Shown in pieces: positions 1 to 12,539 of a stretch of 20,791 nucleotides of DNA (positions within the stretch are counted from its first letter, which is position 1; every line of letters begins with the position of its first letter). The stretch comes from a virus (taxonomy: Duplodnaviria > Heunggongvirae > Uroviricota > Caudoviricetes), in the IMG/VR virus record IMGVR_UViG_2563366825_000026, positions 1-20,791 of that record; one strand, written 5' to 3'. The notes under the pieces are model-generated. The model did not search any database and was not told the origin of the DNA. It saw only the letters and a program-made list of their open reading frames with translations. The position numbers were made by a program, and so were the translations under genes.

Positions 1-207
1 TAATTCCCTCGAGTATTTTGCATCGAGCGCAGCAACATCGCGCTGGCGCACCTGCATATCAGTAATGGTTGCGTTCGCCAGCTTCAGTTCACTGGCTTTG
101 TTATCGCGCTGCGCTTTGTAGGTAATCGCGTTATCACGGTAATGGTCTGTTGCCATCCACAGCGCTCCACAGGCCACCAGCAGAATAACGATAAACGCGG
201 AAAGCAT
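1..207 (-). CDS. Rz: i-spanin Rz, N-terminal part only (gene runs off the left edge of the window)
   Basis: Reverse-complement translation from ATG at 207: [70 protein letters not shown]-terminal TM segment plus the [14 protein letters not shown] and [15 protein letters not shown] blocks closely match lambda Rz as I remember it. Sits downstream of the endolysin. Confidence 0.8.
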
Positions 208-218
208 TCGGTTTATGT

Positions 219-350
219 TCACCCCAGCAGCCCCGACGAAGACAACATCATCCAGGCCATGGAAAGAAAAAGAGCAACCAGCATTAGTGAAAATGAAATG
301 CCGACAATTACACAGAGGATCTTCGCCAGCGTTATGAGTTTGTCTGACAT
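219..350 (-). CDS. small hydrophobic membrane protein (43 aa), unknown function
   Basis: ATG at 350 with GGAGG 7 nt upstream; [43 protein letters not shown] is essentially one TM helix. Stop lies 12 nt before the Rz ATG. The longer track ORF 219..440 starts at a GTG with an implausible Cys-rich N-terminus. Confidence 0.45.
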
Positions 351-364
351 GCTTAATCCTCCCT

Positions 365-547
365 TCACGATTTCAACGCAATGACCAGTTTTGCCAGCCC
401 ATACAGCATCGGGGACACAGCAACACCGACCGCCACCCACTTAATGGCAAAAGCCAGTGCTCTGCTGATGTCATCAGTTACAGGCGCTTTCAGTTCAAGG
501 CCGTTTTTCATAGTCAACCTCAACAGAATTCGTTTATACTTTTCCAT
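365..547 (-). CDS. small membrane protein (60 aa), unknown function
   Basis: ATG at 547 with AAGGGAGAA upstream; [60 protein letters not shown] has a C-terminal hydrophobic helix. The track's longer version starts at a GTG at 580. Confidence 0.45.
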
Positions 548-580
548 GTTCTCCCTTGCCTTATCCAAGGTCAGAAACAC

Positions 581-613
581 AAAACCCCGCTTGCAGCCAA
601 CAAACGGGGTTTT
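581..613. terminator. bidirectional intrinsic-terminator-like hairpin between endolysin and the small membrane genes
   Basis: 9-bp perfect stem AAAACCCCG (581-589) / CGGGGTTTT (605-613), 15-nt loop, U-rich tract following on both strands. Confidence 0.5.
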
Positions 614-703
614 TACTTTTATTCACTTAGTTTTTGTCAGTTCGCAGGATTTCGTGTTATCCGCCCGTGTGAGCAAACCGCATTTTTCAGCAAAATATTC
701 TGC

Positions 704-1237
704 TTATCTGTCAATTCCCCAGCACGCCAGCGCACTCTCCTGGTCGCGACGGGATACCTGACCGTAACAGTTGTTTGAGCGAATACGGCAGTCTCTGCCA
801 CCGTCCTTAATCCACCAGCGAATCGCTTCGCATGCTCCCCTGCGATCACCTGCATTAATTCGTCTGTAAAACGTCGACGGGAAACACTTACCGGGACCAA
901 TGTTGTACGGACAGAATGACGCGATCCCCGCTTTCTGGGGTTCGGTCAGCGGCACTCTGATATTTTTCTCCACCCACGCCAGCGCTTTATCACGCTCAAT
1001 GGCGTTAACCTGGTCGCATTTTTCCTTCGACAACTTCATGCCCGGAACGACAGGTTTGCCATCCACCATGATGGCACCACGGCAGATGGTCCAGATACCT
1101 GCACCATCACGGTATGCCGTGGTGTGGTTACCTTCCTTTTCATCCAGAAACTGGTCGAGAATTTCAGGCGCAGAAGCCCCTGCGGCAATCAGCGCCAGAA
1201 CGGCAGCCGACAGGCCGTATTTGATTTTTGCGTTCAT
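704..1237 (-). CDS. R: phage endolysin, lysozyme with N-terminal SAR (signal-anchor-release) segment, P21 R-like
   Basis: 177 aa. N-terminal YGLSAAVLALIAAGASA hydrophobic stretch, then lysozyme-like body (TAYRDGAGIWTICRG, CPYNIGPGKCFPSTFYRRINAGD, ACWGI) resembling the phage 21 endolysin as I recall it. Sits in a lysis cassette with a pinholin. No Shine-Dalgarno seen upstream of the ATG. Confidence 0.85.
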   Translation of the reverse strand: MNAKIKYGLSAAVLALIAAGASAPEILDQFLDEKEGNHTTAYRDGAGIWTICRGAIMVDGKPVVPGMKLSKEKCDQVNAIERDKALAWVEKNIRVPLTEPQKAGIASFCPYNIGPGKCFPSTFYRRINAGDRRGACEAIRWWIKDGGRDCRIRSNNCYGQVSRRDQESALACWGIDR

Positions 1238-1348: not shown

Positions 1349-1609
1349 ATGGATTATCCAAATCTACCAAAACAAACTTTTGCTGATTTAATCGCACTCA
1401 GGCAAGCAGTCGTAGCTCTAATCAACGTGTTGCCGGATGAGGAAAAGGAATTAGTTAAAGCAATTCTTAACAGAACTGCCGCCGATTTTTCATCATTCCC
1501 ACTGACAGATGACCTTGCGGACCTTCCTGAATTAATTGCAGCGTCCGCCATTAAGCTTACTGAAGAGATTTACTCTCCTCAAAAGCCTTCACAAAATTCC
1601 TGCGAGTAA
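1349..1609 (+). CDS. hypothetical acidic protein (86 aa), convergent with and overlapping the 3' end of the 211-aa gene
   Basis: ATG at 1349 preceded by GAGGTG; MDYPNLPKQTFADLIALRQAVVALINVLPDEEKELV... has about twice as many acidic as basic residues. Fills an otherwise unexplained 320-bp gap upstream of the endolysin. The 53-nt antisense overlap with a confident gene keeps confidence low. Confidence 0.35.
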   Translation: MDYPNLPKQTFADLIALRQAVVALINVLPDEEKELVKAILNRTAADFSSFPLTDDLADLPELIAASAIKLTEEIYSPQKPSQNSCE

Positions 1610-2192
1610 CTTCAATGCAATAATCGTAAAACGCCGCGAACTGCTCATCGCGGCGTTTTTCTTCAGGCCGCTGAAGATGCTCTTTCAACCGTGAAGCGCA
1701 GCTTAGATGCGCCGCGCGATCAAGAATAGTTTCTTTCATTTCATCTGCTGCAAGCACCTCATTTTTTGTTGGGGTGCTTTTTTTCAATTCAGCGATATAG
1801 CACTCCAGTTTTTCAATGCGTGATTCAATATCATCGTTTTCTGACCGCAATGCCGTCGGTGGCGTCTTCAGAGAACCAGTAATTATTCCCGGTAGTTTTC
1901 CTCTGTAGGTTATCAACACATCCTGCGCCTCTAAAATTATGGGGCGCTTTTCCGGCGACTGCTCATCCCCTTCACATAAAGCGGCAGCAATATCCATGAA
2001 AAACTGCTTCGCCTGTTTTTTCGCCTCAGCCTCGTAAAATTCCAGCGTGGCACCTTCAGTACGGTCAAGACTAATCGCCACATTTGGCAACAACAGTGAC
2101 GGATACCCACCAATTTCCAGTGCCACAGTAACAGTAATCTTATCCGGGTAATTATTTATCCCTTTAACAACCAGTTTGTATTGTTTATTCAT
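1557..2192 (-). CDS. hypothetical protein (211 aa) inserted between holin and endolysin; globular N-terminal region plus charged, probably coiled-coil C-terminal half
   Basis: ATG at 2192 lies 4 nt after the holin stop, with GGGGAGAG inside the holin 3' end (translational coupling). Long clean ORF with protein-like composition. I recognise no family. Confidence 0.75.
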   Translation of the reverse strand: MNKQYKLVVKGINNYPDKITVTVALEIGGYPSLLLPNVAISLDRTEGATLEFYEAEAKKQAKQFFMDIAAALCEGDEQSPEKRPIILEAQDVLITYRGKLPGIITGSLKTPPTALRSENDDIESRIEKLECYIAELKKSTPTKNEVLAADEMKETILDRAAHLSCASRLKEHLQRPEEKRRDEQFAAFYDYCIEVTRRNFVKAFEESKSLQ

Positions 2193-2196
2193 CGCC

Positions 2197-2412
2197 TTAC
2201 TCTCCCCGCGCTGCCTTACGACGGTCCTCTCTGATTTTGAAATACAGGTTAGTCAGATATGTCAGCAGCCCAAACAGCAGACTCCCCAGCACGCCTATTG
2301 CCGCCCACTGAGACGGGGAAACCCTGTCCAGCAACTGCAGGAACCAGTAGCCCGTTCCCACCGCTGACGTGGTGTATGACACACCTGTTGTGATTTTTTC
2401 CATCTGGTACAT
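2197..2412 (-). CDS. S: pinholin / antiholin, class II holin S21-like with dual start
   Basis: [71 protein letters not shown] matches my memory of the phage 21 pinholin S21 almost residue for residue in the TM and C-terminal regions. Met1 (2412) and Met4 (2403) give the classic antiholin/holin dual start. GGGAG 9 nt upstream. Confidence 0.85.
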
Positions 2413-2487
2413 ACCCCGTCTCCCGTACTCGGAAGCTCACAACAACAAAAGGGCCACCAGCTCTTTACTGATGACCCTGACTCACCG

Positions 2488-2778
2488 TTACAGCATTGTG
2501 CCCGATTCTGGCTGTGTGTCTGTCATATCCGTCACCGGTGGCTCCGGCTGAATATCACCATTTTCCGTGGTGGCATCTTCCGCCTGTGGTTCCGGAAGCA
2601 GTTCCGGGGATGGTTCCGGCTGTGCACCAAGCAATTCATCCAGAATTGAATCCACTTCTGCATCAAGACGCGCCTCAAGGTTCTGCCGAAGTTGCTGTTT
2701 CAGTGCGCTCCGGACTTCTTCAGAGCGCAGGACTTCCTTCACTGCCTCAGCAGTGACCAGCGATTTTATTTCTGACAT
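2488..2778 (-). CDS. hypothetical acidic protein (96 aa)
   Basis: ATG at 2778; MSEIKSLVTAEAVKEVLRSEEVRSALKQQLRQNLEARLDAEVDSILDELL followed by a Pro/Glu-rich tail. Located between nanS-like gene and holin. Confidence 0.5.
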   Translation of the reverse strand: MSEIKSLVTAEAVKEVLRSEEVRSALKQQLRQNLEARLDAEVDSILDELLGAQPEPSPELLPEPQAEDATTENGDIQPEPPVTDMTDTQPESGTML

Positions 2779-2803
2779 AGGATTTTCTCGTTGAAAGGGG
2801 TTA

Positions 2804-2998
2804 TTAAGAAGGTTGTTCCGGAATGAGTGGGGCTTCTGTTTTTGCTCCGGCTGACTGACTGGCGCTGATTTTCTCTGCGGCCCTTTTATCAATCTGCCTG
2901 CGCCAGAAATCGCGCACTGCCCTGTACCCACCCGAAAGAAGATACAGCACGCATACCACCGTACAGAAGTACAGCATCACCTGATGAACAAATGTCAT
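2804..2998 (-). CDS. hypothetical small membrane protein (64 aa)
   Basis: ATG at 2998; N-terminal hydrophobic helix (VMLYFCTVVCVLYLLSGG) then a charged tail. Confidence 0.45.
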   Translation of the reverse strand: MTFVHQVMLYFCTVVCVLYLLSGGYRAVRDFWRRQIDKRAAEKISASQSAGAKTEAPLIPEQPS

Positions 2999-3101
2999 AG
3001 TTTCTTACCGTTATGGTTGACTCTGGAAGCAGTTTTCGTTTAAAAAATACCAGTGACGAAAGTGATATCATCTTTCCCTGATTCTCACCATGAATCTCAC
3101 A

Positions 3102-3137
3102 CCGCCAGGGGTTTCAGGCCAGCTGGCGGTTTTTTTT
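3102..3137 (+). terminator. intrinsic-terminator-like hairpin, plus-strand oriented (antisense to the late operon)
   Basis: 7-bp stem CCGCCAG (3102-3108) / CTGGCGG (3123-3129) followed by an 8-T run on the plus strand (3130-3137). On the minus strand no U-tract follows the stem. Confidence 0.4.
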
Positions 3138-3142
3138 GCCGG

Positions 3143-5125
3143 TTATGCTGATTCCCGGTTTTCGTTAACTTTGACTGTGACCGTATCAAGCAGTACCGGA
3201 TACGTCGCTTTTGCCCCCGTGATATCTGTCAGCGTCAGCGTATCTGCTGTAAAGCCATCATTTGTCCACATCACCAGGTCAAACGCAGACTGCTCTGCAT
3301 CATCAATCACCGGCACCACTTTTTCGCTGTTATTTCCCGCAAAGCGGAAAACAACTGTATGCCAGTTATGGTCAAATGCCCCAAATGTGCCCAGTTGCGC
3401 ATTCGACTCCCCCTTGTGGTACATCAGATTCAGATTTGATGCATCCGTCTGAAGGAAGAAGGACGCCAGCATGCTGTTTGCTGTCGCGCCTGACGCCCAC
3501 TGCGACACCGGCCAGTACAGACCAAAGACAAACTGACCGTTAACCAGTTCGACACCCTCCGGGATCTTAAACCGCACGGCAATTTCACCTCCCTTACTGA
3601 GAAGATTTTTTGCCTCCTCCACCGCAACAGTACGGAACATCTTCCAGGAGGTCAGTTTACCCGGCTGTTTTTCCAGTCGCAGCGCCTTCCTGCCACTGTC
3701 ATCCGTCACAGTGCCTTTACCACCGGACGCATTCCACTGCTGCTCTGTCCATACACCACTGCCACTGTTCGCATCATATCCGGCCACCATTCTTGTTACG
3801 GCTTCAGTATGACCGCCTGCAGAAATACCTGCACCCTGCTGTTGCGTCGGACCCGCAGAGCCAGACTGTGCATCCCCCGTGGAGGCTGGCGTGGTCGCCA
3901 GCGGTGCAGACTGCCCGCTCAGGAACGGCAGCAAACGCCCGGCTCGCACCAGTATCTCTCCTGCCAGCCGATCTGAAACAATGCCTCTTCGCGCCCAGGA
4001 GCTGAAGTGCGTTTTACGAGCGGCTGTCGTCCAGTTACCATTACTGCGTGACGCGGCACCATAGTATCCCGCCGTGATAATGTCCGGATCTTCTGACGGC
4101 TCGTTTGTCGGCACATTCGCACCATGCTCATCCGTCATCAACGGCACAAAGTGAATATTCTGCGCCGCCTTGCCTTTATAGCCTCCGTAAACCGCCTCAT
4201 ACTGCACTGCATACTTCGCCTTCCAGTCGTACGTGGTGTCACCGCAAATCCACGGGACGCCGGACGTTGTCCCGCCAATACACTGGTCTGCAATATCTGC
4301 CAGGTCTGCACGGTATTTATTTACCATGGCAAGAAAAAGTGCATTGTGCTCTGCATGTCTCCCCGAACTGACATCTTTTTCCCCCTGCATCCAGATCACC
4401 GACAACAGCACGTTTTTCGGATTTTTCTTCAGGGCTGCACGCGTTCTGCTGACCAGGTCACGATACAACGGTTTATCCACCCCCCACAGGGAAGAGCCCG
4501 CTGTCGCACCCGACGCCTCATTAAACGCGCCCTCTGCTCCCGCAGTAAATCCCGAATCGCCACGTCCACACGGGACAAGAAGGATCCCCGCACGGGCAGG
4601 CATAAACGGCAGCAGTTTTTTGGCCACATGCAGGGCATGCCCCACACAGCCATACTGCCCTTTATTGAGGTCTGCTTTCGGGTGATTCAGATTACTCACG
4701 TCCTGCACATCATGCAGACAATGGTCTGCAGGAATAATGTCGTTATATGCACAGGCCGCACCGCCCGGTGTCACCGTGCTGCGACGCGCCAGTTGCTTAA
4801 TACGCGGGTCAGGACGATCATACGTATCCGGCAGCGGCAGCCCCTCGCCAAAAGACATCGAGTTGGACTGCCCGGCCAGCGCAATGACAAAGTAATATTC
4901 CGGTTCGCTGGTGGTGCTGATAACAGCGCCACCATCACCCGACGGTTGCACCACCACCGGTGTGGTGACATCACCTTCCGCCGCAATGGCCTGCATCAGG
5001 GTATAGGGCGTGATGGCGACAGGGCTGCCAAATGGCTGCCACCCCTCCTTCAGTTTTTGAGTCAGTCGCTCCGCAAGGTCTGACGGCGACGCCGCCCTGA
5101 CCACGTCATAGTGTTTAAATGTCAT
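3143..5125 (-). CDS. nanS: prophage-encoded sialate O-acetylesterase, NanS-p-like (N-terminal DUF1737-like region + SASA/SGNH esterase domain + C-terminal domain)
   Basis: 660 aa; ATG at 5125 with GGGAGG upstream. The FVIALAGQSNSMSFGEG block is the esterase-type GQSN motif. Size and architecture match the NanS-p proteins found just upstream of the lysis genes in Stx-type lambdoid prophages. Confidence 0.8.
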   Translation of the reverse strand: MTFKHYDVVRAASPSDLAERLTQKLKEGWQPFGSPVAITPYTLMQAIAAEGDVTTPVVVQPSGDGGAVISTTSEPEYYFVIALAGQSNSMSFGEGLPLPDTYDRPDPRIKQLARRSTVTPGGAACAYNDIIPADHCLHDVQDVSNLNHPKADLNKGQYGCVGHALHVAKKLLPFMPARAGILLVPCGRGDSGFTAGAEGAFNEASGATAGSSLWGVDKPLYRDLVSRTRAALKKNPKNVLLSVIWMQGEKDVSSGRHAEHNALFLAMVNKYRADLADIADQCIGGTTSGVPWICGDTTYDWKAKYAVQYEAVYGGYKGKAAQNIHFVPLMTDEHGANVPTNEPSEDPDIITAGYYGAASRSNGNWTTAARKTHFSSWARRGIVSDRLAGEILVRAGRLLPFLSGQSAPLATTPASTGDAQSGSAGPTQQQGAGISAGGHTEAVTRMVAGYDANSGSGVWTEQQWNASGGKGTVTDDSGRKALRLEKQPGKLTSWKMFRTVAVEEAKNLLSKGGEIAVRFKIPEGVELVNGQFVFGLYWPVSQWASGATANSMLASFFLQTDASNLNLMYHKGESNAQLGTFGAFDHNWHTVVFRFAGNNSEKVVPVIDDAEQSAFDLVMWTNDGFTADTLTLTDITGAKATYPVLLDTVTVKVNENRESA

Positions 5126-5348: not shown

Positions 5349-5696
5349 GTCCATAAGAAAGCCCCTCCGGAGAGGGGCTGGAGAGTGGCGCTATGTGCCA
5401 TTGCATGGTGCCGGGTGCCTCCCGGTGAGTTCAGTATCAGCACCTGAACCCGCACAGAAAGGATAAGGGTCGGTGACAAAACACCAGTTGCTGATTGCCC
5501 CTCCGCACAGGGGGATTCACCATGCCAGTTTCTTTTAACAAACTCCCCGCAAACCAGACAACAGTCAACCGCCTGAATTGTGAGGTATTTAAAAATTTCA
5601 ACGGGTAACTGATACCCTGCTAATCGCCTGATGCTTTCTTTTTCAGCAACGGGGAAGCAACAACCACCACACCCACCAGCCGCCCATTTACCACAA

Positions 5697-6023: not shown

Positions 6024-6112
6024 ATAAAAAACCCGCCAGGCGGCGGGTTTAAGTTGTGTGGCGTAGTAACCACTCTTAACATACTGACATACTTTTTGCG
6101 GACCGCGCTAAT
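6024..6112 (-). promoter_or_regulatory. late-promoter region: putative PR'-like promoter and qut region followed by a tR'-like intrinsic terminator
   Basis: Just downstream of the Q-like stop on the minus strand: stem CCCGCC/GGCGGG (6032-6047) followed by UUUUUUAU. About 35-60 nt upstream lie an A-rich tract and weak sigma70-like hexamers (TGATTA - 17 - TATGTC). Geometry matches the lambda PR'/6S RNA/tR' arrangement; the exact hexamers are uncertain. Confidence 0.5.
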
Positions 6113-6500
6113 CATTTTTTACTTTTTTGGGCAGCCAGTCGTCCATCTCCAGCCTTACACCCAGCATCGACAGACATCCGTCAATAAATCCTTCAGCAAT
6201 CTGCATCTCAATTCGTATTGCCTTTTCGCTCTTCTTTCTTGTTCTGGCAATCTGCCTTTTTGATATGCGCAGCAGATAATGAGCTACCAGCAGCGAATAC
6301 TCGTCCGGTTTTTTCTTCTTCAGGCGCGTAAGGCAGTTTTCGATGATAAGGCCGTCATCATCGCTGCAGGCCGGGCGAGGTTTAGCGGTGGATGGTAAAA
6401 GGCCTTTAAATCCAGCAGCTATCGGAGAATAGTCCACCCCGGTGTTACCACTTGCCGCCCATGCCCCCCAGCGTTCAAGAACCATCTGAATATCACGCAT
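6108..6500 (-). CDS. Q: late-gene antitermination protein Q-like (short Q family, about 130 aa)
   Basis: ATG at 6500 with GGAGA 6 nt upstream (the track ORF starts at a TTG at 6515). Position is diagnostic: last gene before the tR'-like terminator and the late genes, directly after the nin-region genes. Family identity is from memory of short Q proteins and is unverified. Confidence 0.6.
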   Translation of the reverse strand: MRDIQMVLERWGAWAASGNTGVDYSPIAAGFKGLLPSTAKPRPACSDDDGLIIENCLTRLKKKKPDEYSLLVAHYLLRISKRQIARTRKKSEKAIRIEMQIAEGFIDGCLSMLGVRLEMDDWLPKKVKND

Positions 6501-6517
6501 CAACTTTCTCCACAAAA

Positions 6518-11391: not shown

Positions 11392-12539
11392 TTGCGCCCC
11401 CTTACCTCTGAAGGGTTCAGCGACAAATTTATGAGACTGGCCAGTAGCGCCGCGTCGTTGATGCGGTCATACAGACTTACAGCCAGCGGGGATTCGGCTT
11501 TTGCCAACATGGGATAAAGCTGCTGCAGCCAGACCTGATGAATTGATGAAATGTAGGAATAGAGAACGCTGGCGTTATATGCAACGTCGCTCAGTACAGA
11601 GGGATTTGAAAGCTGTTTCTCCATCTGGTTAAAGGCATTGATGTATGCCTCTTTGAACCGGGCAGCACGTTTACCCGTGAAGCCCATGGCAAGAAACGCA
11701 AAACCGTCGCGGGTGATTTGGTAACAAGGGAGTTTGCGGCCTGATGCGTCGGTGTATTCACTTAACACAAAATTGTGTTCAGTAAATTCAGCGGAACATT
11801 CGAGGTTTCTAATTCTATCTAAAACCCGCTCATGCCGTTTAGTAAAGTAATTAGCTACTGCAAGAGATGTGGTGACAACGCGACCATTGATAATCGTGAT
11901 TTCAGGGTGAGATTGGGTTGGGAGAGTAGTCATGGTGACAGCCCCTATGTTGAATTCAATGAACTCACCACCAAGGCTTTCCACGACCATATAGGTGGTG
12001 AGACGTACAGGGGTGGAAATACCGGTCAACATAGAACCCGGCCCAACCGAAGTTGGCCCTGCACGCCCCACCATAATTTGGGCGTAACGATGCTCATGAC
12101 ACGAAAAAACCGCATGAGCGCGGTTGTGCTCTATATTGAATTTCGGGTTTCCACGCCCGGCACCCGCTTTATAAGGTGCCTGAACAGTGTAACGTCCCGG
12201 AATTGCAGAATCAATATGCTGGTGGTCCTTCACACTCAACAAAATCACGCCTGAATTTCCACAAAGGACTAAAGCACTCATGCGGGTAGTCTTTGCGAAG
12301 ATAGATAACGCGCTGTGTTTCTGGCTCCCAACGAATAACATGGACATAAAGCCCTCTTCCGTCACGAAACCAGCGGTTAAGTTCCTGCACAACTCGCCCC
12401 CCACAGTCAGGTAAAGTTCTCTGTGGTTACTTACAGCCAGGTGATTTGGTAATCTGCATTCATGCCGTAACAACAGGTGTTCAGCGACGCTGACCACCAG
12501 CTGTTGCGACAAACGGTTATTTGCCGTTAAACTATTCAT
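11388..12539 (-). CDS. Rha-domain phage regulatory protein with an N-terminal extension of about 200 aa of unknown function
   Basis: Residues from about 203 (MTTLPTQSHPEITIINGRVVTTSLAVANYFTKRHERVLDRIRNLECSAEF...DGFAFLAMGFTGKRAARFKEAYINAFNQME) match the Rha domain, which is usually N-terminal. An internal ATG at 11933 with an AGGGG SD could give a 181-aa Rha-only product. The 12539 ATG overlaps the upstream stop (ATGA), supporting the long form. Confidence 0.6.
   Translation of the reverse strand: MNSLTANNRLSQQLVVSVAEHLLLRHECRLPNHLAVSNHRELYLTVGGELCRNLTAGFVTEEGFMSMLFVGSQKHSALSIFAKTTRMSALVLCGNSGVILLSVKDHQHIDSAIPGRYTVQAPYKAGAGRGNPKFNIEHNRAHAVFSCHEHRYAQIMVGRAGPTSVGPGSMLTGISTPVRLTTYMVVESLGGEFIEFNIGAVTMTTLPTQSHPEITIINGRVVTTSLAVANYFTKRHERVLDRIRNLECSAEFTEHNFVLSEYTDASGRKLPCYQITRDGFAFLAMGFTGKRAARFKEAYINAFNQMEKQLSNPSVLSDVAYNASVLYSYISSIHQVWLQQLYPMLAKAESPLAVSLYDRINDAALLASLINLSLNPSEVRGRK

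What the first reader, a model, noticed from the sequence alone, without database searches (positions are those of the whole stretch)
219..613. Two small membrane proteins and a hairpin terminator between endolysin and Rz
Canonical cassettes go endolysin then Rz/Rz1 directly. Here the endolysin is followed by a bidirectional terminator-like hairpin (581-613) and then two short ORFs with strong SDs (60 aa, C-terminal TM; 43 aa, single TM) before Rz. Neither looks like a lipoprotein, so they are not an Rz1 equivalent. They could be holin-like or antiholin-like lysis regulators, or an unrelated small-protein module.
Basis: partly seen in the sequence, partly recalled or inferred. Interest (0 to 1): 0.5.

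Follow-up and report, generated by a model that had tools for sequence, protein, structure and literature searches.

The report
Membrane-peptide module inside phage lysis cassette
Between the wall-degrading enzyme gene and the outer-membrane-disrupting gene of this E. coli prophage sit a terminator hairpin and two real, conserved genes for tiny membrane proteins; they recur in many E. coli genomes and in Shiga-toxin phages, but I found no study of them and no known function.

Summary
All genes are on the minus strand: lysozyme R (1237..704), a 14-bp hairpin (613..581) with T-runs on both strands, ORF-A (547..365, 60 aa), ORF-B (350..219, 43 aa), then Rz.

- **Both ORFs are real genes.** pN/pS is 0.11 for A and 0.39 for B in their own frames, against about 1 or more in the other sense frames.
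- **Both belong to PHROG families of unknown function.** They have no Pfam, NCBIfam, PADLOC or PDB relatives.
- **They are common.** Some part of the region occurs in 2112 of 5426 complete E. coli genomes. B occurs in 276 phage records, mostly Stx phages, where it is usually unannotated.
- **The hairpin belongs to the peptide array, not to R.** Structure-preserving variants precede A-family genes in several unrelated contexts.
- **The position is consistent.** In 163 of 166 fetched loci, A lies between an endolysin (three unrelated types) and Rz or a 60-aa lipoprotein.

The best reading is a mobile accessory module that depends on Q antitermination and encodes inner-membrane peptides acting at lysis. 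Their function is unproven. No homology to holins, releasin or spanins was detectable. A conserved antisense promoter-like site inside A suggests antisense-RNA control, but that evidence is weak.

The parts
1..222 (-). 5' part of the i-spanin gene Rz. Start is either GTG 222..220 or ATG 207..205. The rest of the gene lies off the window.
   Evidence: The translation matches Rz of related phages. The canonical Rz ATG is ATA here. GTG 222 overlaps the ORF-B stop as GTGA. Rz1 is embedded in Rz in the 98.9%-identical phage PhiR12_1.
219..350 (-). ORF-B: 43-aa single-pass membrane peptide ([43 protein letters not shown]). Predicted N-in with a 14-residue periplasmic tail.
   Evidence: phrog_4906, E=2e-23, unknown function. 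KD 2.89 at residues 11-29. pN/pS 0.39 in frame versus 0.98 and 1.64 between alleles with 67% nucleotide identity. Full-length in 276 phage records. It abuts the Rz or lipoprotein start.
358..364 (-). Shine-Dalgarno AGGGAGG of ORF-B, overlapping the ORF-A stop codon (367..365).
   Evidence: Read directly from the sequence.
365..547 (-). ORF-A: 60-aa tail-anchored membrane peptide. An internal in-frame Met13 (ATG 511..509) is preceded by GAGG, so a 48-aa product is also possible.
   Evidence: phrog_1115, E=1e-42, unknown function. pN/pS 0.11 versus 1.08 and 2.16. AF2 model has helices at 2-14 and 22-59, mean pLDDT 75.7. KD 1.88 at residues 38-56; net charge +4 on the N-side and +1 on the C-side. 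The 48-aa core MKNG...ALKS is the part conserved across Escherichia, Salmonella and Klebsiella.
552..558 (-). Shine-Dalgarno AAGGGAG of ORF-A.
   Evidence: Read directly from the sequence. Conserved in A modules that carry different hairpins.
581..613 (.). Bidirectional terminator-like hairpin forming the 5' boundary of the small-peptide array. Stem AAAACCCCGTTTGT / GCAAGCGGGGTTTT, loop TGGCT. T-runs at 584..572 (minus strand) and 610-620 (plus strand).
   Evidence: -25.1 kcal/mol, z = -3.0. Top terminator-like site. 23-24 sequence variants upstream of A-family genes fold at -15 to -22 kcal/mol. They keep an A-run upstream (mean 7 of 9) and a T-run downstream (mean 6.7 of 9). 4 of 8 consensus pairs show compensatory changes. 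No Rfam family reaches threshold.
511..540 (+). Antisense sigma-70 promoter-like site inside the 5' end of ORF-A: TAGTCA, 18 nt, TATACT. Hypothetical.
   Evidence: it is the only promoter-like site found in scans of four divergent loci, and it is present in all 76 unique A-module sequences. Control: 28-40% of synonymous recodings of the same peptides also give such a site. Support is therefore weak.
547..622 (+). Predicted cis-antisense RNA of about 75 nt, covering the SD and start codon of ORF-A and ending at the hairpin. Hypothetical, with no expression data.
   Evidence: Inferred from promoter position plus terminator. It folds into two stem-loops, -20.2 kcal/mol, z = -3.2. Its only Rfam match is a sub-threshold one (rimP leader, 27.5 bits against a gathering score of 47).
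704..1237 (-). Endolysin R (GH24 lysozyme with an N-terminal SAR-like segment).
   Evidence: PF00959, E=3e-24. phrog_7 endolysin.
2197..2412 (-). S21-type class II holin (pinholin family) with two in-frame Met codons (Met1 and Met4).
   Evidence: PF04971, E=9e-33.
6108..6515 (-). Late antiterminator Q, upstream of and co-oriented with the lysis cassette.
   Evidence: PF06530, E=3e-52. STnc100 RNA lies immediately downstream at 5554..5349.

Best explanation
The hairpin, ORF-A and ORF-B form a mobile accessory module of the late operon of lambdoid prophages.

**Shown**
- A and B are real genes for tiny inner-membrane peptides under purifying selection.
- Each has a strong SD. A's stop overlaps B's SD. 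B's stop overlaps or abuts the start of the spanin gene.
- No promoter or terminator lies between A, B and Rz.
- A stable terminator-type hairpin always precedes the array and evolves by structure-preserving changes.
- A Q-type antiterminator lies upstream in the same orientation.

**Inferred**
- The peptides are made only from Q-modified late transcription, which reads through terminators. They would therefore appear together with holin, endolysin and spanin.
- The hairpin insulates them from any other transcription. It may also stabilise the upstream S-R message.
- Predicted topology: A inserts N-in through a weakly hydrophobic Ala/Gly/Ser-rich C-terminal helix, possibly in two isoforms of 60 and 48 aa. 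B inserts N-in with a short periplasmic tail.

**Committed mechanism**
The peptides act in the inner membrane as non-essential modulators of the membrane steps of lysis. Candidate targets are the timing of holin triggering, SAR-endolysin release, and spanin activation.

I rate the structural and genetic part as near certain and the lysis-modulator function as plausible but unproven.
For: **Real genes**
- pN/pS for A is 0.11, against 1.08 and 2.16 in the other frames.
- pN/pS for B is 0.39, against 0.98 and 1.64, including Ser TCT to AGC switches.
- Both match PHROG families.
- Either ORF or the hairpin region occurs in 2112 of 5426 complete E. coli genomes, and 990 genomes hold at least 80% of the region.
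- B is full-length in 276 phage records.

**Position**
- In 163 of 166 fetched loci, A sits between an endolysin and Rz or a 60-aa lipoprotein.
- The endolysin can be GH24 lysozyme, GH108 with PG_binding_3, or an M15 peptidase, and the holins also differ: S21 type, HP1 type, or Phage_holin_8 with Phage_holin_3_7.
- The A-B order is kept in non-homologous cassettes.
- B stays glued to the next gene even when an antirepressor replaces A in Stx phages.

**Operon logic**
- Tight spacing and coupling.
- No sense-strand promoter in the region.
- Q is present.
- Another terminator-like hairpin lies within the same late operon at 2478..2450.

**Hairpin belongs to the array**
- It is present with A, with the alternative peptide D32, and in tail and baseplate contexts where another terminator already lies just upstream.
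- It is absent where R overlaps Rz directly.
- Variants covary.

**Membrane features**.
Against: - No expression, toxicity or lysis-timing data exist for any family member. Literature searches returned nothing.
- No homology to any characterised lysis protein.
- The module is dispensable. It is absent from K-12 DLP12 and Qin and, from my own knowledge, from lambda and phage 21.
- B carries a frameshifted C-terminus in 8 of 88 loci.
- A-family genes also occur next to baseplate, tail-fibre and esterase/DUF1353 genes. This argues that A does not need lysis partners.
- The same slot holds an antirepressor in Stx phages, so it may simply be a permissive insertion site.
- The 166 loci were retrieved by similarity and are not an unbiased sample.
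Confidence: 0.45

Rival explanations
1. Non-lysis cargo. A and B are late-expressed membrane peptides with a job unrelated to lysis, such as blocking superinfection or DNA entry, masking a receptor or transporter, or manipulating host membrane physiology. The R-Rz junction is just a tolerated insertion hot spot in the late operon.
For: - The same gap holds an unrelated antirepressor gene in Stx phages.
- It also holds a varying set of other tiny peptides: C28, D32 and a 49-aa ORF.
- A-family genes also lie after a baseplate-spike-like gene in Klebsiella, after tail-fibre/DUF4376 genes, and after SASA-esterase genes in Salmonella.
- The module is dispensable.
- GC content is slightly lower than in S, R and Rz: 0.47 against 0.51-0.54.
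Against: - No sense-strand promoter was found, and a terminator lies upstream, so expression in lysogens looks unlikely. Classic exclusion or conversion morons need such expression.
- 163 of 166 loci are between endolysin and the outer-membrane-step gene, across non-homologous cassettes where homologous recombination cannot explain the placement.
- No PADLOC match.
Confidence: 0.25
2. Antisense-guarded toxic peptide. The hairpin plus the 5' end of A form a cis-antisense control unit.
- A conserved plus-strand promoter inside codons 3-13 of A would drive an RNA of about 75 nt.
- That RNA would cover A's SD and start codon and stop at the bidirectional hairpin.
- It would silence any leaky A mRNA until massive Q-driven late transcription overrides it.

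The logic resembles type I toxin-antitoxin pairs, and the sar RNA that covers the ant ribosome-binding site in phage P22 (the P22 comparison is from my own knowledge). This would be a regulatory layer that is compatible with either function above.
For: - The antisense promoter-like site is the only promoter-like site found in scans of four divergent loci. It sits at the same relative position with different hexamers: TAGTCA-18-TATAAT, TGGACA-18-TATACT, TTGGCC-16-TATACT and TTGTCA-18-TATACT.
- It is present in all 76 unique sequences, with only one other promoter-like hit in those 210-nt segments.
- The hairpin keeps T-runs for both directions in all variants.
- The hairpin accompanies A even where another terminator already lies just upstream.
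- The predicted RNA is well folded, z = -3.2.
- Synonymous divergence of the 5' half of A is lower than that of the 3' half against the Salmonella allele: 0.27 against 0.54.
Against: - 28-40% of synonymous recodings of the same peptides also give a promoter-like site. The signal may therefore be a by-product of the conserved K-Y-K...L-T-M residues.
- The sequences are related by descent, not independent.
- The pS difference between halves is absent in the E. coli comparisons and rests on small counts.
- An A-run with a T-run is also a common feature of one-directional terminators.
- No Rfam family matches and no transcript data are available.
- No separate toxin promoter exists, unlike in type I systems.
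Confidence: 0.2
3. The ORFs have little or no protein function. They persist as translated spacers that deliver ribosomes to Rz by translational coupling, or they are decaying remnants. The hairpin is an ordinary intra-operon terminator or an mRNA-stability element.
For: - B's stop overlaps or abuts the next start codon in every architecture.
- B's C-terminal half is variable, and it is frameshifted in 8 of 88 loci.
- Many carrier prophages are probably defective.
Against: - Purifying selection acts on the amino-acid sequence of both ORFs.
- B's length is conserved at 43-44 codons across 65-100% identity in 276 phage records, including inducible Stx phages.
- The A core is conserved across three genera.
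- Cassettes without these ORFs express Rz without any such leader.
Confidence: 0.07

Closest known systems
Accessory membrane proteins of phage lysis cassettes: P2 LysA (between endolysin K and spanins LysB/LysC), antiholins such as lambda S107 and S21-71, T4 RI. These details are from my own knowledge.
   Same: - Small inner-membrane proteins encoded inside the lysis cassette and co-transcribed late.
- Not essential for lysis, but tune it.
- P2 LysA occupies the same endolysin-to-spanin position.
- A has two in-frame starts, like dual-start holin genes.
   Different: - No sequence relationship was detected.
- A and B are much smaller than LysA or RI and have a single transmembrane segment.
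- A's extension is 12 residues upstream of a cytoplasmic segment, not next to a flipping transmembrane segment.
- No functional data exist.
Mu gp25 releasin (DUF2730), PMC9239132
   Same: A single-pass membrane protein encoded near a SAR endolysin gene that assists the endolysin step. The window's R has a SAR-like N-terminus.
   Different: - Releasin is 99 aa, N-out/C-in, with an N-terminal transmembrane segment and a 73-aa acidic cytoplasmic domain.
- A is 60 aa with a C-terminal transmembrane segment and a basic N-terminus. B is 43 aa.
- No DUF2730 match.
- A and B also accompany M15 and GH108 endolysins, for which no SAR domain was tested.
Morons of lambdoid phages (bor, lom, HK97 gp15), in the sense used by Hendrix and co-workers. 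From my own knowledge.
   Same: Extra genes inserted between two genes that are adjacent in related phages. They are mosaic, mobile between genomes, and have slightly different base composition.
   Different: - Classic morons carry their own promoter upstream and terminator downstream, and are expressed in the lysogen.
- Here the terminator is upstream, no sense promoter is detectable, and the genes are translationally chained to the next late gene.
Cis-antisense control of phage and toxin genes: P22 sar RNA with ant, and type I toxin-antitoxin pairs such as hok/sok and symE/symR. From my own knowledge.
   Same: A small hydrophobic peptide gene whose ribosome-binding site would be covered by a short antisense RNA ending at a bidirectional terminator. 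The predicted RNA is about 75 nt.
   Different: - The antisense RNA is only predicted.
- The promoter signal may be a by-product of coding.
- There is no dedicated toxin promoter.
- No Rfam family matches.
PHROG families phrog_1115/4493/3246 (A), phrog_4906 (B), phrog_6632 (D32), phrog_7528 (60-aa lipoprotein)
   Same: Direct family membership by HMM: E=1e-42 for A and 2e-23 for B.
   Different: These families carry no functional annotation, so membership names the sequences but explains nothing.

Membership tests
Holin (including S21 pinholin family PF04971) | Sequence membership in a holin family | tested here: not met
   No holin Pfam or PHROG hit for A or B. A family against the window's S21 holin by hhalign gives probability 1.5%. 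BLASTP gives only a 16-residue transmembrane match, E=0.004 for a single comparison.
Holin (including S21 pinholin family PF04971) | At least one transmembrane segment plus a highly charged, hydrophilic C-terminal cytoplasmic tail | tested here: not met
   Transmembrane segments are present, but A ends ...ALKS and B ends ...SSSGLLG.
Holin (including S21 pinholin family PF04971) | Lethal, timed permeabilisation of the inner membrane | not testable with these tools
   Needs expression and proton-motive-force or lysis assays.
Antiholin (dual-start type) | Two in-frame start codons giving isoforms that differ by a charged N-terminal extension | tested here: inconclusive
   A has Met1 and Met13. 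Met13 is preceded by a conserved GAGG or GGAGG. The extension is basic (net +4). Use of both starts is unproven, and B has no second start.
Releasin (Mu gp25, DUF2730) | DUF2730 domain: N-terminal transmembrane segment (N-out/C-in) with an acidic cytoplasmic domain of about 70 aa | tested here: not met
   No Pfam hit. Size and topology are opposite to the description in PMC9239132.
o-spanin (Rz1) | Signal peptide with a lipobox Cys; gene embedded in, overlapping or following the i-spanin gene | tested here: not met
   No lipobox in A or B. A genuine Rz1 is embedded in Rz in the 98.9%-identical phage.
i-spanin (Rz) | N-terminal transmembrane segment followed by a long periplasmic coiled-coil domain | tested here: not met
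   B has only about 14 residues after its transmembrane segment. hhalign of B against Rz gives probability 0.2%.
Moron (classic definition) | Insertion between genes that are adjacent in related phages | tested here: met
   R overlaps Rz directly in K-12 DLP12 and Qin. The slot content is mosaic.
Moron (classic definition) | Own promoter upstream and terminator downstream, allowing expression from the prophage | tested here: not met
   No sense-strand promoter-like site was found. The terminator lies upstream, and none lies between B and Rz.
Intrinsic (Rho-independent) terminator | GC-rich stem, short loop and a following U-run; structure conserved in evolution | tested here: met
   Actual termination and read-through by Q-modified polymerase are not testable here.
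Type I toxin-antitoxin / cis-antisense RNA control | Small hydrophobic toxin peptide | tested here: inconclusive
   A is 48-60 aa with one transmembrane segment. Toxicity is untested.
Type I toxin-antitoxin / cis-antisense RNA control | Antisense RNA with its own promoter and terminator overlapping the toxin mRNA | tested here: inconclusive
   A conserved promoter-like site and a bidirectional terminator are present. The recoding control gives 28-40%, and no transcript evidence exists.
Type I toxin-antitoxin / cis-antisense RNA control | Dedicated promoter for the toxin mRNA | tested here: not met
   None found between the hairpin and the start codon or just upstream.
Known anti-phage defence proteins (PADLOC) | HMM match | tested here: not met
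   No hits for A, B, C28, D32 or the 60-aa lipoprotein at E up to 1.
PHROG phrog_1115 (A) and phrog_4906 (B) | HMM match over full length | tested here: met
   E=1.4e-42 and 2.1e-23. Both families are of unknown function.

The most novel reading that the evidence does not exclude
The hairpin and ORF-A form a self-contained mobile unit: a membrane-active peptide gene kept silent by a double lock. The first lock is an upstream terminator. The second is a constitutive cis-antisense RNA of about 75 nt that ends at that same bidirectional terminator.

Lambdoid phages would have recruited this unit into their lysis cassettes as a new kind of lysis-timing device, released only by Q antitermination. 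ORF-B would be a second, spanin-coupled membrane peptide.

Together they would be uncharacterised regulators of lysis that are present in Shiga-toxin phages, where lysis releases toxin.
Probability: 0.15. Interest if true: 0.75.

Novelty: new variant of a known kind. Interest (0 to 1): 0.55.

Why it matters
- **A gap in a well-studied system.** Lambdoid lysis cassettes are among the best-studied gene sets in virology. Yet these two peptide families are annotated only as 'hypothetical protein' or not annotated at all. They sit inside the cassette in many E. coli genomes (2112 of 5426 complete genomes match part of the region) and in 276 phage records, mostly Stx-converting phages.
- **Possible link to toxin release.** In Stx phages, lysis timing governs release of toxin and phage. 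A conserved modulator of that step would bear on pathogenesis and on the design of lysis modules.
- **An unusual gene layout.** The terminator-first, promoter-less arrangement is an instructive variant of the moron idea. Expression would be gated by antitermination rather than by a private promoter.
- **Directly testable.** The proposals can be checked with standard lysogen genetics and one Northern blot.

Tried and rejected
**Database searches with no result**
- Rfam: nothing at gathering score for the hairpin. The only match is a sub-threshold rimP-leader hit that reflects a generic terminator shape.
- Pfam, NCBIfam, PADLOC and PDB sequence searches: nothing for A or B.

**Homology ideas rejected**
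- A's transmembrane segment related to TMD2 of the S21 holin: hhalign probability 1.5%.
- B derived from the Rz N-terminus through the shared 'LCV' motif: probability 0.2%.
- A related to B: probability 0.8%.
- Releasin membership: rejected on size, topology and domain.

**Tests of the antisense-promoter idea**
- A synonymous-recoding control weakened the promoter argument: 28-40% of recodings keep a promoter-like site.
- Pairwise pS shows A is uniformly less diverged than B (0.16 against 0.57). There is no 5'-specific constraint in the E. coli comparisons. The low third-position diversity in the 5' half of A is therefore not firm evidence.
- A small 5'-UTR stem (CCTTG...CAAGG) that would occlude A's SD is not conserved in other variants.

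**Distribution**
- Two scans of species-representative genomes found no copy.
- The deep HMMER search found only 24 representative clusters, all short. The family is narrow and confined to accessory prophage DNA.

**Literature**
- Searches by protein accession, by peptide strings and for spanin inhibitors returned nothing relevant.
- A comparative paper on Stx phages describes the cassette only as S, R and Rz/Rz1.
- EHEC prophage sRNA papers place their RNAs elsewhere.
- One protein cluster (P0120) fuses the S21 holin N-terminus to A's C-terminus. It comes from a single 554-bp contig, and I treated it as a likely assembly or recombination artefact.
Full report
**1. What is in the sequence**

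The genes of this region lie on the minus strand. Reading in the direction of transcription, the window holds:
- a Q-type antiterminator at 6515..6108 (PF06530, E=3e-52);
- the STnc100 RNA at 5554..5349;
- a 660-aa esterase-like protein;
- a DUF826 protein;
- an S21-type holin at 2412..2197 (PF04971);
- a DUF1327 protein;
- one opposite-strand ORF;
- the lysozyme R at 1237..704 (PF00959).

This is the late operon of a lambdoid prophage.

After R comes a 90-nt spacer and then the hairpin at 613..581. The hairpin has a 14-bp stem and a 5-nt loop, folds at -25.1 kcal/mol in context, and has z = -3.0 against shuffles. T-runs follow it on both strands, and it is the top terminator-like site in the scan.

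ORF-A starts 33 nt downstream, at ATG 547, behind the SD AAGGGAG. It encodes 60 aa and stops at 367..365. The stop overlaps the SD (AGGGAGG) of ORF-B, which runs from ATG 350 to stop 221..219 and encodes 43 aa.

Rz follows at once. The codon where related phages have the Rz ATG is ATA here. Rz must therefore start either at GTG 222, which overlaps the B stop as GTGA, or at ATG 207.

**2. Are the ORFs genes?**

Yes, both are.
- **ORF-A.** Among 16 nucleotide alleles, pN/pS is 0.11 in the ORF's frame and 1.08 and 2.16 in the other two frames.
- **ORF-B, close alleles.** These gave an ambiguous result of 0.46-0.48.
- **ORF-B, diverged alleles.** A diverged B from another cassette type is 67% identical at the DNA level. 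It gives pS 0.545 and pN 0.214 (ratio 0.39) in frame, against 0.98 and 1.64 in the other sense frames. It shows many synonymous changes, including Ser TCT to AGC.

B keeps 43-44 codons in 276 phage records at 65-100% identity. Both ORFs match PHROG families of unknown function: phrog_1115 at E=1e-42 and phrog_4906 at E=2e-23. Neither has a match in Pfam, NCBIfam, PADLOC or PDB sequences.

**3. The proteins**

- **ORF-A.** It has a basic N-terminus (net +4). Its weakly hydrophobic Ala/Gly/Ser-rich segment at residues 38-56 has a Kyte-Doolittle (KD) mean hydropathy of 1.88, similar to the SAR-like segment of R at 1.78. Only four residues follow it. AlphaFold2 gives a helix at 2-14, a loop, and one long helix at 22-59, with mean pLDDT 75.7.
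- **Conserved core of A.** Across Escherichia, Salmonella and Klebsiella the conserved part is the 48-residue stretch starting at Met13 (MKNG.E..AP.T...). The N-terminal extension varies or is replaced. Met13 is preceded by a conserved GAGG or GGAGG, so 60-aa and 48-aa products are both plausible.
- **ORF-B.** It has one strongly hydrophobic segment (KD 2.89, residues 11-29), a slightly basic N-terminus and a 14-residue tail.
- **Topology.** By the positive-inside rule both would be N-in. This is an inference.

**4. Distribution and architecture**

Some part of window 200-640 matches 2112 of 5426 complete E. coli genomes, and 990 genomes hold at least 80% of it. The features are always annotated as hypothetical proteins.

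The R-Rz gap is a mosaic slot. I saw these arrangements:
- R-A-B-Rz, the commonest form and the one in this window;
- R-A-C28-Rz;
- R-A-B-A'-C28-Rz;
- R-D32-B-A'-C28-Rz, in EPEC E2348/69;
- R-D32-Rz;
- R-ant-B-Rz, in the Stx phages examined (Min27, BP-4795 and phi191), where B is often not annotated.

C28 is a short homologue of the C-terminal half of A. K-12 DLP12 and Qin have R overlapping Rz with nothing in between.

The A-B pair also occurs in non-homologous cassettes. These use Phage_holin_8 and Phage_holin_3_7 holins with a GH108 or an M15 endolysin. A 60-aa lipoprotein of unknown function (phrog_7528) stands where Rz would be.

Of 166 fetched loci, 163 have A between an endolysin and Rz or that lipoprotein. 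This sample was retrieved by similarity and is not unbiased.

A-family genes outside lysis cassettes occur in three settings:
- after a baseplate-spike-like gene in a Klebsiella prophage;
- after tail-fibre and DUF4376 genes in Salmonella;
- between an esterase gene and a DUF1353 gene in Salmonella.

The family is narrow. The deep search found only 24 representative clusters among 1.84 billion proteins. Two scans of species-representative genomes found no copy.

**5. The hairpin belongs to the peptide array**

Every A-family gene examined, in every context, is preceded within about 30-70 nt by a hairpin of the same design: an A-run, CCCCG, an inner stem and loop, CGGGG, then a T-run.
- The inner stem and loop differ between variants.
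- The 23-24 variants fold at -15 to -22 kcal/mol.
- They keep both the upstream A-run and the downstream T-run.
- Four of eight consensus pairs show compensatory changes.

In two Salmonella contexts another terminator already lies just upstream, yet the A-type hairpin is still present. The hairpin also precedes D32 where A is absent. It is missing where R overlaps Rz. No Rfam family matches it.

**6. Mechanism**

No sense-strand promoter-like site lies between R and Rz, and no terminator lies between A, B and Rz. The start and stop signals are chained.

With Q upstream, the simplest reading is that A and B are made only from Q-modified late transcription. By established knowledge of lambdoid phages, that transcription ignores terminators. 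The hairpin would then act as an insulator against all other transcription, and perhaps as a stabiliser of the upstream message.

The recurring position between the endolysin gene and the outer-membrane-step gene holds in cassettes that share no other genes. For that reason I favour a non-essential role at the membrane steps of lysis. The function is an inference with no direct evidence. The contexts outside lysis cassettes, and the antirepressor in the same slot, keep the 'unrelated cargo' rival alive.

**7. A possible antisense RNA**

A sigma-70-like site lies on the opposite strand inside codons 3-13 of A: TAGTCA, 18 nt, TATACT, at 511-540. It would start an RNA at about position 547. That RNA would cover A's start codon and SD and end at the hairpin. 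It would be about 75 nt long and folds at z = -3.2.

- **For.** The same site is the only promoter-like hit in scans of four divergent loci, with different -35 hexamers, and a fifth locus read by eye has the same arrangement. It is present in all 76 unique sequences.
- **Against.** When the peptides are recoded synonymously at random, 28-40% of the recodings still show such a site. The pS comparisons do not show a consistent 5'-specific constraint.

I therefore rate this as an interesting but weakly supported idea that one Northern blot could settle.

**8. Comparison with known systems**

The nearest functional analogues are:
- accessory membrane proteins of lysis cassettes, such as P2 LysA, the dual-start antiholins and Mu releasin;
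- morons;
- for the regulatory idea, P22 sar/ant and type I toxin-antitoxin pairs.

Membership in holin, releasin and spanin families was tested and not met. The classic moron layout is also not met, because the terminator is upstream and there is no private promoter.

Literature searches found no study of these proteins. A comparative analysis of 279 Stx phages lists only S, R and Rz/Rz1 in the cassette.

**9. Verdict**

- The feature is a real, widespread and uncharacterised module.
- Its sequences are already catalogued as families of unknown function.
- Its organisation and likely role make it a new variant of known kinds: accessory lysis proteins and morons.
- Interest is moderate to good. 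The module sits in a classic system and in Stx phages, and it is easy to test.

Noticed in passing
window 214-222: The codon that is the Rz start ATG in related phages (Min27, BP-4795: ATG AAC CGT) is ATA here. Rz must start at GTG 222, overlapping the ORF-B stop as GTGA, or at ATG 207. The ATG start would leave no positive charge before the transmembrane segment. The same variant occurs in phi191 and in strain W13-16.
   Followed up: partly
L102, L110, L112, L115 about 3322-3516; L094 2149-2331; L155 3149-3331: In cassettes with GH108 or M15 endolysins, A and B are followed not by Rz but by a 60-aa lipoprotein (MKRKHWTHRMPRTAAKWALVAILVPFFLVGC...). It has a mature part of about 30 aa with 3 Cys and belongs to phrog_7528 (unknown function, no Pfam match). 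No i-spanin was seen nearby. It may be an uncharacterised outer-membrane-step protein.
   Followed up: partly
window 1349-1609 (+), with terminator-like sites at 1660-1677 and 1752-1779 (+): An 86-aa ORF (phrog_2572, unknown function) lies on the opposite strand between the DUF1327 gene and R. Plus-strand terminator-like hairpins follow it. It looks like an opposite-strand moron inside the lysis cassette.
   Followed up: no
window 1557-2192 (-): A 211-aa DUF1327 protein is inserted between holin and endolysin. This is another departure from the S-R-Rz textbook order. Related phages have a YdfR-family gene there instead.
   Followed up: no
window 2450-2478 (-) and 2412-3143: A second terminator-like hairpin lies inside the late operon, between the DUF826 ORF and the holin gene. 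A 2026 preprint places the prophage sRNAs PasA and PasC between the sialic-acid esterase gene and the holin-lysozyme genes, which is this interval.
   Followed up: partly
window 5349-5554 (-), 11991-12078 (-), 12103-12179 (-): Three Rfam matches above gathering score: STnc100 just downstream of Q, C4 antisense RNA, and the isrK Hfq-binding RNA. The last two lie within a Rha/Ash-like gene region.
   Followed up: no
L028, L029, L032, L034 and others (8 loci), ORF-B: These are frameshifted B alleles with the same total length. They keep the N-terminal 26 residues but end ...[18 protein letters not shown]. The same alternative frame forms the N-terminus of a truncated A' in E2348/69 ([22 protein letters not shown]...).
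   Followed up: partly
L003 (E2348/69), L005 (pMY504-2), L106 3212-3361: Further tiny membrane-peptide genes occupy the same slot:
- D32 (MAEKLSTWKFILIWLVFVIMASGYFIGQIRWW, phrog_6632);
- C28 (MSAELIRAMAFAIRIVAIAVLVWAIRWW);
- a 49-aa ORF (MIKAETTPQGADDAAKIIVVCRG...).

Several share the C-terminal ...IRWW-stop junction with the next gene.
   Followed up: partly
protein cluster P0120 (ENA contig of 554 bp): A 59-aa protein joins the N-terminal 36 residues of the S21-type holin to the C-terminal 23 residues of A, at a shared W-(A/V)-A-(I/V)-G-V motif. It is either an assembly artefact or a natural recombinant between the two transmembrane segments.
   Followed up: no
L182 2736-2873: In one Salmonella locus a Hok/Gef-family toxin gene lies about 600 nt downstream of the A-family gene. 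This is probably coincidence.
   Followed up: no
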